Shown: one piece after another, positions 1,743 to 6,985 of the stretch
Layout of the letters: each line of letters opens with the position of its first letter
Numbering within the stretch: the stretch's first letter is position 1
Assembly (NCBI RefSeq): GCF_006345805.1
Contig: NW_021829066.1
Span: forward strand, 1-6,985
Length of the DNA: 6,985 bases
Origin: Octopus sinensis
Lineage: Eukaryota
Direction of reading: 5' to 3'
The notes under the pieces: generated by a model
Seen by the model: the letters and a program-made list of their open reading frames with translations, nothing else
Database searches by the model: none
Told to the model about the DNA's origin: nothing
Program-made: the position numbers and the translations under genes

Positions 1743-2305
1743 TTGCTTCTCCTACCTTCATTGTCCAGGTAAAACTAAAAGAGGTGAAACTCTTACTCAA
1801 GTTAGATAAAGAACGAACAAGTATTAAAAAAAGCCAGAAAATGTAAGAAGGAAGAAAAAAAATAAAACACTGAAGAAAGAAGCACAAAAACAACCTGACA
1901 CCAGCCCCAGTATTATACAAGATAAATATTAAGCTGTACAAATGATAAATTGCTTCGTTTCAATATCAAAATCTTTTTCTCGTTTTCCTTAGCTTTTGTT
2001 TTGGTATGAAGAAATAAAAGATACATTAAATGTTCCTATTTACGAAACACATAAATAGAATGAGAACTGGCTGGCTGGTTGAAGAGATAAGCTTTTTCCC
2101 TTTGATCTTCAGGCTGTAAATATAAACCATTACATGATTTTGGTGTTTCAGGCATATGTCTAAGAGAACACGTGTTAGAGATAAGCGAAATTCCCATTAT
2201 TATTGGCATTCTCATTACGTATAGGCATCGAGTTGATAGCATACGTAGGCTCCTCGTTCTTCCGTGTTCTAATCTCGGAAAAGTCAACTTTCCTTGAGTT
2301 TCATA

Positions 2306-2519
2306 TTCTTTTCTACTCTAAGCACAAGGCCCGACATTTTTGGGGAGGGGCCTAGTCGTTTAGATCAGCACCAGTACACAACTGGTACTTAATTTATCGA
2401 CCCGAAAGGATGAAAAGCAAAGTCGACCACGCAGAATTTGAACTCAGAACGTAAAGACAGACGAAATACCGCTAAACACTTCGCTTGGCATGCTAACGTT
2501 TCTGTCAGCTTGCCGCCTT
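2306..2519 (-). mobile_element. SINE family B copy, full length
   Basis: Minus strand starts aaggcggcaagctgacagaaacgttagcatgcc, contains gagttcaaattc and ttcatcctttcgggtcgataaattaagtaccag, and ends gccttgtgcttagagtagaaaagaa. Confidence 0.92.
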
Positions 2520-2527
2520 GGTTGAGT

Positions 2528-2746
2528 CTTATTTTTTTTTATACTCTAGGCACAAGGCACGACATTTTTGGGGAGGGGCCTAGTCGTTTAGATCGACCCC
2601 AGTGCGTAACTGGTACTTATTTAATCGACCCCGAAAGCATGGAAGGCAAAGTCGACCTCGGCGGAATTTGAACTCAGAACATAAAGAAAGACGAAGGTCG
2701 CTAAGCATTTCAACCGCCGCGCTAACGATTCCACCAACACACCTCT
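2528..2746 (-). mobile_element. SINE family B copy, tandem neighbour of 2306-2519
   Basis: Same order of motifs (gtcgacctcggcggaatttgaactcagaac on the + strand); the head at 2700-2746 is more diverged. Confidence 0.92.
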
Positions 2747-2769
2747 GAATCAAGAATGGAATGAAATAA

Positions 2770-3358
2770 TCTTTTCTGCTATAAGCACGAAGCCTGAAAT
2801 TTGGAGGGTGGGTGTGAGGATAGTCGACTACATCGACCCTAGTACTCAACTGGTACTTCATTTATCGACCCCAAAAGGATGAATGGCAAAGTCGACCTCG
2901 GCGAAATTTGAGCTGAGAACGTAGCGACGGTCGAAATACCTATTTCTTTACTACCTACAAGGGGCTAAACACAGAGGAGACAAACAAGGACAGACAAACG
3001 GATTAAGTCGATTACATCGACCCCACTGAGTAACTGGTACTTAGTTTATCGACCCCGAAAGGATGAAAGGCAAAGTCGACCTCGGCGGATTTTGAACTCA
3101 GAACGTAAAGATAGCCGAAATACCTATTTCTTTACCACTCACAAGGGGCTAAACGCAGAGAGGACAAACAAGGACAGACAAACGGATGAAGTCGATTATA
3201 TCGACCCCAGTGCGTAACTGGTACTTATTTAATCGCCCCCGAGAGGGATGAAAAGCAAAGTCGACCTCGGCGGAATTTGAACTTAGAACGTAACGGCAGA
3301 CGAAATACGGCTACGCACTTCGCCCGGCGTGCTAACGTTTCTGCCAGCTCGCCGCCTT
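2770..3358 (-). mobile_element. Composite family-B SINE: one head followed by three tandem bodies (~184-bp period)
   Basis: Single head at 3310-3358. The junction motif cgaaatac recurs at 2932, 3116 and 3301. Units 2941-3124 and 3125-3309 share an alternative tail (tatttcttta...caaggggctaaac...gacaaacaaggacagacaaacgga on +). The last unit (2770-2940) has the ordinary tail. Confidence 0.92.
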
Positions 3359-3557
3359 GTTTGGGTCTCATATTGATAAAATAACATAAGTATTCACTTA
3401 ATGGTTTTTCGACTCTATTCTCCTTGAAAAGGAGCTTCTTACTTCGGCAAAATAAATAATCACTGAACAAGCGATAACAATTAATATGACGTAGAAAATA
3501 ACTCTAACTAACTACGAACTGATAATAGCAAATAGAGATATATACTTTTGATGTTAA

Positions 3558-4539: not shown

Positions 4540-4863
4540 TACTACTCTTTTACTCTTTTTACTTGTTTCAGTCATTTGGCTGCGGCCATACTGGAGCATC
4601 GCCTTTAGTCGAGCATATCGACCCCAGGACTTATTCTTTGTAAGCCCAGCACTTATTCTACAGGTTTCTTTTGCCGAACCGCGAAGTTACGAGGACGTAA
4701 ACACGCCAGCATCGGTTGTCAAGCGATGTTGTGTGTGTGTGGGGAGGGACAAACATACATACTCACCGGCCCGAGGCTATAGTAGAAGACAAGGTACCAC
4801 GCAGTGGGACTGAAACCGGAACCATGTGGTTGGTAACCAAGCTACTTACCACACAGCCACCCC
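4540..4863 (-). mobile_element. SINE family A copy with internal deletions, sitting within a (TA)n tract
   Basis: Minus strand: gtggctgtgtggtaagtagcttgg...atggttccggtttcagtcccactgcgtgg head; tail gctccagtatggccgcagccaaatgactgaaacaagtaaaaagagtaaaagagta. The segment ggatttggtagacg...gaagctcgtcg and most of the internal TA tract seen at about 6435-6550 are missing near 4760. Confidence 0.93.
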
Positions 4864-4887
4864 TATATATATATATATATATATATC

Positions 4888-5015: not shown

Positions 5016-5229
5016 ACAAGAAAATATAAGGACACAGATCGTGTCGTATAGTCAGCTGGAGACGATGTCTCCTGGGGCTAAATTTCAGAAACATTCATCC
5101 TAAATCAGGACTGCCATGTAATGTTTGCAAACCATCTTTACTACAAAGTACTGTTACTGAATATCTCACGTTGTGAGATTTAAAAATAGTAATTTTTTAA
5201 AGAATTTCAATTGTTCTATGTTGAATTTA

Positions 5230-5237
5230 TGACGTCA
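5230..5237. promoter_or_regulatory. Perfect CRE/ATF palindrome TGACGTCA (function unproven)
   Basis: Exact consensus; lies in the 19-bp block that is identical in both inverted arms. Confidence 0.4.
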
Positions 5238-5364
5238 CAATATCGTAAACGTTTCTCCGGATTTTGCTTTCAAGATTTTTCAGTCTGTTTCCCCCTCTCA
5301 CGATGATTGAAGTCCTCGAAAATGTGTGGGTGCAGGACATCAGCCAAGCATACAAAGGCTAGTA

Positions 5365-5372
5365 TGACGTCA
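5365..5372. promoter_or_regulatory. Second perfect CRE/ATF palindrome TGACGTCA (function unproven)
   Basis: Exact consensus, 135 bp downstream of the first, in the same tatgacgtca context. Confidence 0.35.
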
Positions 5373-5775
5373 GTGTCGTCTGCGTTATGCTTTTAGCGTT
5401 TGTAGGCTTACTTTATACACCTTTGCTTTCTTAAACACCGTCTGTAAATGTTGATTGATATTATAACATACATACAAGGTGTAGACCAGTGATGAGTTTT
5501 CGTATGAGCTTTTAATTATGCATTTTCAGGAAAGAAAACCAGTGACTACCAAGCAGACATATACTTCACTCTTGATACATTTACACAGAATATTTTATTG
5601 TAAACGCGTGACTATAATGTGAAAAAGACTTTAAATTAGTATGAAATAATGGTTACTAAACTTGTAGTCACACATATGTCAACAGAAGAAAATTATGAAT
5701 GTGATAAGTCTTTTAATAAAAATATATGAAATGGTTGCAATTTAAATCTTTGAGCCACAGTTTAAGATATTTCTA

Positions 5776-5899
5776 TGTTGTGTGTTCCTTCTCGAGCCAT
5801 GCCTGGCTCATAAGGGCCAGTTTCCCGGTTTCCTTGTCGTATAGGTTCCCCATCTGGATGGGACGCCGGTCCGTCACAGGTGAGCTGCAAGAGGAAAAG
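5776..5899 (-). mobile_element. 3' fragment of a SINE related to family C
   Basis: Minus strand ctgtgacggaccggcgtcccatccagatggggaacctatacg...gaaaccgggaaactggcccttatgagccaggcatggctcgagaagg aligns with 1183-1278 (ctgcgatggactggcgtcccgtccagctggggggaacacatacg...gaaactgggaaaccgggcccatgagcctggccaggcttgaaaagg). Confidence 0.88.
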
Positions 5900-6092
5900 T
5901 TTGTGTGTTTGGCATCCACTACCGCTTGGCAACCGGTGTTGGTGTGTTTACTTCCTAGCAAAAGACACCGATAGTATGATTATCAGGCTTAAGAAAGAAT
6001 GTCTTGGAGTCGACTCATTCGACTAAAATTCCTTTAAGAGGTGCTTCAGCATGGCCGCAGTCTAATGACTGAAATAAGTTAATAATTAAAGA
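5900..6092 (+). mobile_element. 3' half of a family-A SINE (no head)
   Basis: ccgcttggcaaccggtgttggtgtgtttac ... gtcgactcattcgactaaa ... gtgcttcagcatggccgcagtctaatgactgaaataag. Confidence 0.9.
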
Positions 6093-6310
6093 GACGCTCA
6101 AAGATTTAAACAGCAACAAACTTATATACTTATTAAAATACTCACCATCTTTATATTCGCTTGACTTTTAAATGGCTAACACAGTACTTGATTAAAAGCT
6201 CATACGTTGACGGTATATAGCCATACACATTGAGCTGTTTCAGAAATCAGTGGTGCGAAAACCAAGCCCACAACACAGTAAACAACGGAAGTTGGAGCTG
6301 ACTGTATACA

Positions 6311-6486
6311 GGCGTAGGAGTTGCTGTGTGGTAAGTAGCTTGCTTACCACATGGTTCCGGGTTCAGTCCCGCTGCGTGGCACCTTGGCTAAGTGTCTTCT
6401 ACTATAGCTTCGGGCCGACCAAAGCCTTGTGAGTGGATTTGGTAGACGAAAACTGAAAGAAGCTCGTCGTATATATGTATACATAC

Positions 6487-6535
<49 letters not shown>

Positions 6536-6756
6536 GTGTGTGTGTGTGTGTGGTGTCCTAACATCGCTTGACAACCGATGCTGGTGTATTTACGTCCCTG
6601 TAACTTAGCGGTTCGGCAAAAGTGACCTATAGAAAAAAAAATTTTTTTTCACAAAAAATAAGTCCTGGGGCCGATTTCCTCGATTAAAGGCGGTACTCCA
6701 GGATGGCCACCGTCAAATGACTGAAACAAGTAAATGCGTAAAAGAGTAAAGAGTAA
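6311..6756 (+). mobile_element. SINE family A copy, full length
   Basis: ggcgtaggagttgctgtgtggtaag (A-box-like), B-box GTTCAGTCC at 6361-6369, internal (TA)/(TACA)/(TG) tract at 6470-6550, tail gtcaaatgactgaaacaagtaaa...aaaagagtaaagagtaa. Confidence 0.95.
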
Positions 6757-6884
6757 GTGTTTAGATGTTTCACTCAGCCCTTCATTGCGAACGCATTCCT
6801 TAGATTAGATTCTACTCGCGTTGAGAAGATGAAATAAACGGGGAAGTTTTTGAAACCAGATTCGGGAGAAGGTTAAAGATATTG

Positions 6885-6892
6885 TGACGTCA
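6885..6892. promoter_or_regulatory. Perfect CRE/ATF palindrome TGACGTCA in the right arm (function unproven)
   Basis: Mirror copy of 5230-5237. Confidence 0.4.
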
Positions 6893-6947
6893 TAAACAGA
6901 ATAGAAAATAGTTGAAATTCCTTTGGAATAAAGAAATAATTCTTAAG

Positions 6948-6985
6948 CACACATATACACATACACACGGACACACACACATATA
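6948..6985. repeat. (CA)/(TA)n-rich microsatellite running off the window end
   Basis: cacacatatacacatacacacggacacacacacatata. Confidence 0.85.

What the first reader, a model, noticed from the sequence alone, without database searches (positions are those of the whole stretch)
5180..6947. Hidden ~1.75-kb inverted repeat built from a non-SINE unit and masked by later SINE insertions
Seen: five exact reverse-complement anchors (9, 19, 16, 9 and 15 bp) in nested order link 5180-5756 with 6096-6947. By my count the ungapped stretch 5226-5300 matches its mirror at 53/75 positions. The symmetry axis shifts by 449 bp exactly where a ~446-bp SINE (6311-6756) sits, so that SINE is younger than the duplication. 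The right arm also lacks about 144 bp present in 5517-5710. Inference: this is either an old foldback/MITE-like element with very long terminal inverted repeats, or a tail-to-tail inverted duplication of a regulatory or ncRNA unit. It matches none of the three SINE families here, and I do not recognise it.
Basis: partly seen in the sequence, partly recalled or inferred. Interest (0 to 1): 0.72.

Follow-up and report, generated by a model that had tools for sequence, protein, structure and literature searches.

The report
Worn inverted pair of dispersed repeat
The mirror image is real but ordinary: it is two worn, shortened copies of a non-coding repeat scattered in dozens of single copies across this genome, likely duplicated back-to-back once long ago and later split by short jumping elements, not a fold-back transposon family.

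Summary
The inverted repeat is real. All five exact anchors and the 53/75 count reproduce, and the arm alignments beat 500 of 500 dinucleotide shuffles. But each arm is a copy of a dispersed, non-coding repeat of about 0.8-1.1 kb with dozens of copies in the own genome (42, 51 and 39 hits, lower bounds). None of 44 other neighbourhoods holds a mirrored partner; one holds a 55-75 bp opposite-strand scrap. So this is not a long-TIR foldback or MITE family. The arms are only 63% alike, lack the family's 3' end, and have SINE pieces between and inside them. A one-off old local inverted duplication is likely; a sister relationship of the arms is only weakly supported. The family stays unclassified: no ORF, Rfam hit, TIR, Helitron end or coding partner. 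It has a ~290-bp core that is conserved while its flanks diverge, a conserved TGACGTCA upstream, and it seeded a ~100-copy 117-bp satellite. DNA-level (rolling-circle-like) copying fits best. Dfam and Repbase could not be searched. Low interest.

The parts
5172..5776 (+). Left arm: copy of the dispersed non-coding repeat, ~27% diverged from the family majority, cut before the family's 3' end
   Evidence: Profile built without this copy: columns 50-648, E 1.7e-87; divergence 0.274; 3'-end motif absent
5230..5237 (+). TGACGTCA octamer (CRE/ATF-type site, label recalled), conserved in the family
   Evidence: Exact in 21 of 29 aligned copies, both arms included
5280..5556 (+). Left-arm remnant of the family's conserved ~290-bp core, starting at TCAGTC (initiator-like, label recalled)
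   Evidence: Core 89-97% alike among 8 near-majority copies; between their subgroups 5' flanks 55-72% and 3' flanks 64-80%; this copy 64-68%
5770..5879 (-). Spacer piece 1: tail fragment of the SINE family seen at 1183-1292
   Evidence: 74% over 112 bp, E 7e-16
5899..6092 (+). Spacer piece 2: 3' half of the abundant SINE family (as at 6311-6756)
   Evidence: 63-67% over 187-219 bp to four window copies
6090..6178 (-). Right arm, inner piece (profile columns 540-633)
   Evidence: E 1.5e-5; score 66 vs shuffle maximum 43
6191..6206 (-). 16-bp island identical to 5501-5516, in a variant state not found elsewhere in the genome
   Evidence: 2 exact hits in 2.72 Gb, both in this window
6231..6305 (-). 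Right arm, middle piece (profile columns 224-293)
   Evidence: E 2.4e-6
6311..6756 (+). Full-length SINE inserted into the right arm
   Evidence: 71-83% to other window copies; profile continuous on both sides
6758..6967 (-). Right arm, outer piece (columns 2-210), with TGACGTCA at 6885-6892 and the family's alternating purine-pyrimidine tract at its outer end
   Evidence: E 7.9e-23; alternation 0.92 at 6946-6985

Best explanation
The feature is a tail-to-tail pair of two decayed, 3'-truncated copies of a low-copy, dispersed, non-coding repeat, likely made by a single old local inverted duplication and likely without function today. Shown: both arms are family members; other copies are single or in direct orientation; SINE pieces fill the centre and a younger SINE splits the right arm. 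Inferred: one copy was duplicated in inverted orientation (or a second copy landed next to it), the centre with both 3' ends was lost, SINEs inserted, and the arms drifted to 63% identity. The family is likely a non-autonomous mobile element copied at the DNA level; rolling-circle-type copying is my single best guess (about 45%; retroposon with a CA-rich tail about 20%, duplicated promoter or ncRNA gene about 20%, solo LTR about 15%).
For: Dispersed copies: 42 hits with the left arm, 51 with a better copy (some are pieces of one copy), 39 exact-to-2-mismatch hits of one 22-mer against 0 for the reversed control. No mirrored partner in 44 neighbourhoods, 708,747 bases, nor in the 50-kb C23 stretch. 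Flanks differ between subfamilies; no shared non-generic block outside the unit among near-majority copies of different subgroups. Local origin: both arms stop at nearly the same profile column (648 and 633) against the spacer; private 16-mer; arms are sisters in two trees, UFBoot 79 and 95; separate same-strand neighbours in 5 of 42 neighbourhoods (C6a, C3, C10191, L158; L169) show that local copying is common in this family. DNA-level copying: 8 of 42 neighbourhoods share one palindromic insertion at the same column, 6 of them also a Helitron-like block, and further blocks lie upstream in 4 and downstream in 2; internal tandem arrays in two copies; no poly(A) tail or tRNA-like head seen in the aligned ends (by eye).
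Against: The left arm is not the right arm's best pairwise match (rank 7, 19 and 3 of 33 for three pieces). Shared derived bases are 24 of 98, no higher in proportion than with L008 (13 of 52). The tree grouping joins the two longest branches and may be long-branch attraction, and the 16-mer was chosen after the fact. No Helitron-type ends were found, so the rolling-circle guess rests on indirect traits. The core is much more conserved than its flanks and TGACGTCA survives in both worn arms, which plain decay does not fully explain, though the searches favour copies with intact words. The contig is only 6985 bases long, so any host gene is out of view.
Confidence: 0.72

Rival explanations
1. 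The whole 1.75-kb palindrome is one old foldback/MITE-type DNA transposon with ~600-bp terminal inverted repeats, moved by cut-and-paste.
For: Nested anchors and similar inner end points of the arms. One other locus (L169) has a 55-75 bp opposite-strand piece in the same tail-to-tail geometry, E 5e-4. Searches score only the best candidates, so palindromic copies as worn as this one could be missed.
Against: 0 of 44 neighbourhoods have a mirrored arm. Single copies run past the point where the arms stop, to a 3'-end motif found in 14 of 42 neighbourhoods against 3 of 83 control stretches. The centre is SINE-derived. The outer ends differ: the right one abuts a TG/CA tract, the left one does not; no target-site duplication is visible.
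Confidence: 0.05
2. The unit is a multi-copy Pol II promoter plus ~290-nt non-coding RNA or first exon, spread by duplication; the window holds two dead, convergent pseudogene copies.
For: Core 89-97% alike across subgroups whose flanks are 55-80% alike. TGACGTCA about 50 bp before TCAGTC at the core start; a GGTAAGT donor-like word downstream in 6 of 21 copies. Contigs of other coded organisms cover the core at far higher summed depth than the flanks. One run guessed to be RNA holds contigs with no letter differences to one copy. Fold z-scores -1.7 to -2.3.
Against: No Rfam hit on the core in the window or in 6 better copies. Covariation term +0.44, 4 of 41 pairs with any two-sided change. 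Paired and unpaired columns are equally conserved, and the G-U excess appears for folds of either strand. A subfamily multiplied with an insertion in mid-core. The RNA-guessed contigs run across both the TCAGTC start and the donor word. No codon periodicity (p 0.61 and 0.94) and 0 Pfam families in 12 frames.
Confidence: 0.15
3. Whatever its origin, the pair is kept as a long hairpin in a transcript and serves as an ADAR editing substrate or small-RNA source.
For: If transcribed, the arms are predicted to pair: 194 (+ strand) or 236 (- strand) arm-arm pairs, all in register; outer duplex -115 vs -55 +/- 6 kcal/mol for base-shuffled controls. Octopus has very high hyper-editing (PMC5625713, passages).
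Against: The arms are 63% alike with large deletions and a SINE in one arm. An inverted SINE pair in the same window forms a far stronger duplex (-239 kcal/mol). No transcript of this locus was seen or tested.
Confidence: 0.06
4. The arms are inverted terminal (pLTR) repeats of a Penelope-like retroelement, or solo LTRs.
For: Earlier AI notes report inverted Penelope end repeats in this genome (unchecked). Promoter-like motifs and a donor-like word fit a pLTR or LTR (recalled). An 8-bp TGTGTGAA/TTCACACA likeness at the two ends of some copies (by eye).
Against: No core in 25 GIY-YIG loci; Penelope-type protein hits in 3 of 45 neighbourhoods and Gypsy-type pol in 3 of 45, at no consistent place or strand. 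No recurring terminal inverted repeat in 10 full-length copies. The stretches between two direct pairs showed only an RTE-like scrap and simple repeats (translations printed, read by eye).
Confidence: 0.08

Closest known systems
HINE (non-autonomous Helentron) elements, e.g. Cg_HINE of Crassostrea gigas (PMC7492417, passages) and DINE-1 (PMC4067079, search listing only)
   Same: Non-coding, dispersed, microsatellite-associated, carry internal tandem repeats that can grow into satellite-like arrays, can stand head-to-tail, no target-site duplication seen.
   Different: No 11-12 bp subTIR pair and no 3' palindrome recur in 10 full-length copies; the conserved part is a ~290-bp centre rather than short end modules.
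Foldback / long-TIR MITE-type DNA transposons (recalled)
   Same: Two long inverted arms around a non-coding centre at this one locus.
   Different: The arm sequence exists as single copies elsewhere; no other palindromic copy in 44 neighbourhoods; the centre is SINE debris; arms 63% alike.
Neighbouring inverted copies of one interspersed repeat, the usual source of dsRNA for ADAR (PMC5625713, passages)
   Same: Two opposite copies of one repeat within 2 kb that are predicted to pair if co-transcribed.
   Different: Very old, low-copy family and a weak duplex; transcription not shown.
Octopus tRNA-derived SINEs (tRNA-Core, tRNA-Deu; PMC8967140, passages)
   Same: Dispersed, non-coding, conserved central core, simple-repeat borders.
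   Different: No tRNA-like head (ends by eye), T-runs inside the core on both strands, only tens of copies here.

Membership tests
Foldback/MITE with long TIRs | Multiple dispersed copies with both inverted arms | tested here: not met
   0 of 44 neighbourhoods; one 55-75 bp scrap
Foldback/MITE with long TIRs | Sharp matching outer ends with a target-site duplication | tested here: inconclusive
   Outer ends are blurred; the right end lies in a simple repeat next to the contig end
Helitron / HINE | 3' hairpin followed by CTRR, or subTIR pair plus 3' palindrome | tested here: not met
   No recurring inverted repeat or CTRR position in 10 full-length copies; true ends may be hidden in microsatellites
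Helitron / HINE | Internal tandem repeats, head-to-tail copies, carried cargo | tested here: met
   these traits are not exclusive to the family
Helitron / HINE | Autonomous Rep/helicase partner sharing the ends | tested here: inconclusive
   Helicase remnants in 4 of 45 neighbourhoods (two are the probes' own sources), no shared position
tRNA-derived SINE | tRNA-like head with Pol III boxes | tested here: not met
   No tRNA or Rfam hit on the unit, though ARAGORN also misses the window's real SINE heads; ends inspected
Penelope-like element pLTR | Adjacent RT plus GIY-YIG ORF in some copies | tested here: not met
   0 of 25 GIY-YIG loci hold the core; 3 of 45 neighbourhoods hold unlinked scraps; only 25 of 147 listed loci were fetched
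Solo LTR | TG...CA ends with 4-6 bp target-site duplication, or a copy flanking gag-pol | tested here: inconclusive
   Ends fade into simple repeats; one Gypsy-type probe family only
Known structured RNA family | Rfam match and covarying structure | tested here: not met
Described repeat consensus (Dfam/Repbase/RepeatModeler) | Sequence hit to a library entry | not testable with these tools

The most novel reading that the evidence does not exclude
The repeat is an undescribed octopus-lineage multi-copy unit in which a CRE-driven Pol II promoter makes a ~290-nt RNA whose sequence has been held constant across subfamilies and species while the flanks turned over; it is amplified in at least one related species and has seeded a satellite. 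The window pair would then be two dead convergent copies.
Probability: 0.12. Interest if true: 0.6.

Novelty: new member of a known kind. Interest (0 to 1): 0.2.

Why it matters
As found it matters little: neighbouring inverted copies of interspersed repeats are common, and unclassified repeats are a large share of cephalopod genomes (PMC8967140, passages). The family has modest value as a clear case of a mobile repeat seeding a ~12-kb satellite from an internal piece, and as an uncurated element with an unusually constrained core. It would matter more only if that core proved to be a transcribed functional RNA or a mobile promoter.

Tried and rejected
Coding exon: no codon periodicity, stops in all frames, 0 Pfam families in 12 frames. 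Zinc-finger gene-family promoter: no strict C2H2 motif in any stretch fetched up to and no shared downstream exon-like block. Structured RNA or hammerhead; two CUGAAGA words lacked the other hammerhead stems by eye. Helitron 5' part: the Helitron-like block after some copies is an independent high-copy element (1341 candidates); 0 of 11 other such loci had the core within 1.5 kb. Viral or metagenome source: 0 exact hits of a 33-base pattern in viral and in metagenome contigs. Sequencing-run search: no RNA holder listed; of three runs guessed to be RNA, one gave 4 contigs, one 1, one 0. A sigma-70 scan was at chance level and is not relevant to this host. Earlier-findings look-ups by sequence and by nearby place found nothing. 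Four paper searches showed no description of this unit in their listings; they cannot match by sequence. A profile search of the whole genome with the DNA alignment was not available, so copy numbers are lower bounds. A Pfam scan of the stretches between direct pairs was not completed.

Full report
Observation. The window is a whole unplaced contig (G000:C5537, 6985 bases) of a 2.72-Gb animal genome. The five exact anchors, the 53/75 count and the ~144-bp gap reproduce. Arm alignments score 96 and 66 against shuffle maxima of 47 and 43 in 500 shuffles each. The shift across the SINE at 6311-6756 is about 448 bp by gapped alignment and 415 bp between exact anchors. Over 314 shared profile columns the arms are 63% identical.

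What the arms are. The left arm finds 42 places in the own genome at 67-79% for the longer hits. A better-preserved copy finds 51 (some are pieces of one copy), and one 22-mer with up to 2 mismatches finds 39 against 0 for the reversed control. These are lower bounds. A profile built from 14 copies without the window hits the left arm at E 1.7e-87 and the right arm in three collinear pieces (columns 2-210, 224-293, 540-633), with the SINE sitting between columns 210 and 224. Both arms are about 27% from the family majority, at the top of the range (11-28%). The centre, 5770-6092, is two SINE fragments. A 3'-end motif lies about 670-700 bp after the TGACGTCA in uninterrupted copies (14 of 42 neighbourhoods vs 3 of 83 controls); it is missing from both arms. 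The left end of the unit abuts an alternating purine-pyrimidine tract in 15 of 22 copies (background 11%).

Is the palindrome a family? No. In 44 neighbourhoods of 8-30 kb (708,747 bases; two are segmental duplicates of each other, a few are cut by contig ends) a sensitive scan of the opposite strand gave one hit below E 0.05, a 55-75 bp piece at L169, and five at E 0.06-0.34. The 50-kb C23 stretch, left out of that scan, had 101 hits, all on one strand. Same-strand neighbours occur in 5 of 42 neighbourhoods.

Did the arms arise from each other? Probably, but the support is mixed. For: adjacency in a family of this size, near-equal inner end points (columns 648 and 633), a 16-mer variant found only in these two arms in the whole genome, and sister position in two trees (UFBoot 79 on 32 rows cut to right-arm columns, 95 on 34 rows). 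Against: the left arm ranks 7, 19 and 3 of 33 as match to three right-arm pieces; the share of shared derived bases (24 of 98) equals that with L008 (13 of 52); and the two longest branches may attract. The 19-bp anchor is simply the family's conserved motif, with 10 exact copies outside the window.

What the family is. It is non-coding: no codon periodicity, stops in all frames, 0 Pfam families in 12 frames. It has a ~290-bp core, 89-97% alike among 8 near-majority copies whose flanks are only 55-80% alike between subgroups. Contigs of three other coded organisms cover mainly this core, at summed depths up to the thousands in organism E (depth is not a copy number). TGACGTCA is exact in 21 of 29 copies and TCAGTC at the core start in 21 of 29; reading them as a CRE and an initiator is from recall. 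Structure tests were negative: no Rfam hit, no covariation, equal conservation of paired and unpaired columns; single-sequence z-scores are mild on both strands. One run guessed to be RNA holds contigs without letter differences to one copy, but they cross both putative transcript borders. No TIR, subTIR or CTRR end recurs in 10 full-length copies. Penelope, Helitron and Gypsy-type coding remnants occur in 3, 4 and 3 of 45 neighbourhoods with no common position.

Mechanism. Shown: dispersed single copies with different flanks; a subfamily spread to several chromosomes together with the same palindromic insertion (8 of 42 neighbourhoods) and a Helitron-like block (6), with further blocks upstream in 4 and downstream in 2; and two independent internal tandem arrays ending at column 415, about 100 units of 117 bp on C23 and 4 units of about 167 bp on C2. 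Inferred: copying at the DNA level, most like rolling-circle non-autonomous elements, which capture sequence, stand in tandem and carry satellite-like arrays (PMC7492417, passages). The defining ends were not found, so I do not file it as a Helitron or HINE. For the window: one copy was likely duplicated in inverted orientation, lost the centre, gained SINEs and decayed. If transcribed, the arms are predicted to pair (194-236 pairs in register), but a plain inverted SINE pair in the same window pairs about twice as strongly.

Literature seen. PMC8967140, PMC5625713 and PMC7492417: passages. PMC4067079: search listing. Four searches showed no description of this unit in their listings; supplements and repeat libraries were not seen and may hold it. 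Earlier AI notes on Penelope end repeats prompted the negative test.

Verdict. Real, explained as an old inverted pair of an unclassified low-copy repeat; not a new fold-back element. Interest 0.2.

Noticed in passing
G000:C23:26475875-26488065 (L058:5875-10000, L059:1-8065): About 100 tandem 117-124 bp units derived from the core (profile columns 285-415), nested inside one copy of the repeat: a satellite born within the element.
   Followed up: partly
L154:6470-7637 (G000:C2, near 53.67 Mb): A second, independent internal array of four ~167-bp units (columns 253-415) ending at the same core boundary.
   Followed up: no
G000:C13:758001-778000, 23748001-23768000, 26123001-26143000; C10191; L152, L153, L159, L160: Subfamily sharing a ~400-bp palindromic insertion in mid-core and a Helitron-like block; two further blocks lie upstream in four loci and downstream in two, suggesting a circularly permuted ~5-kb unit.
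   Followed up: partly
L071:60-420: 5' part of an abundant Helitron-like element (1341 first-look candidates, 83-85% alike); at G000:C13 near 763-765 kb a Rep/helicase remnant lies further on.
   Followed up: partly
L077:1622-1919 and L107:4784-5091: In contigs of organism E the core, but not the flanks, has summed depth in the thousands, hinting at a recent amplification there.
   Followed up: no
window 2294-3374: Five head-to-tail copies of a 184-240 bp unit of a SINE-like element, three of them at exact 184-bp period.
   Followed up: no
window 4543-4865 and 6311-6756: Inverted pair of SINE copies, 82% alike, predicted duplex about -240 kcal/mol; a stronger dsRNA candidate than the reported arms.
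   Followed up: partly
G000:C10952, C12541, C1280, C6359, C8846, C8689, C2365: Seven unplaced contigs carry the same copy with 93-99% identical flanks next to Gypsy-type pol remnants: a segmental or tandem duplication.
   Followed up: no
L169:6023-6077: Short opposite-strand piece centred on the TGACGTCA motif, about 330 bp beyond the 3' end of a copy.
   Followed up: partly
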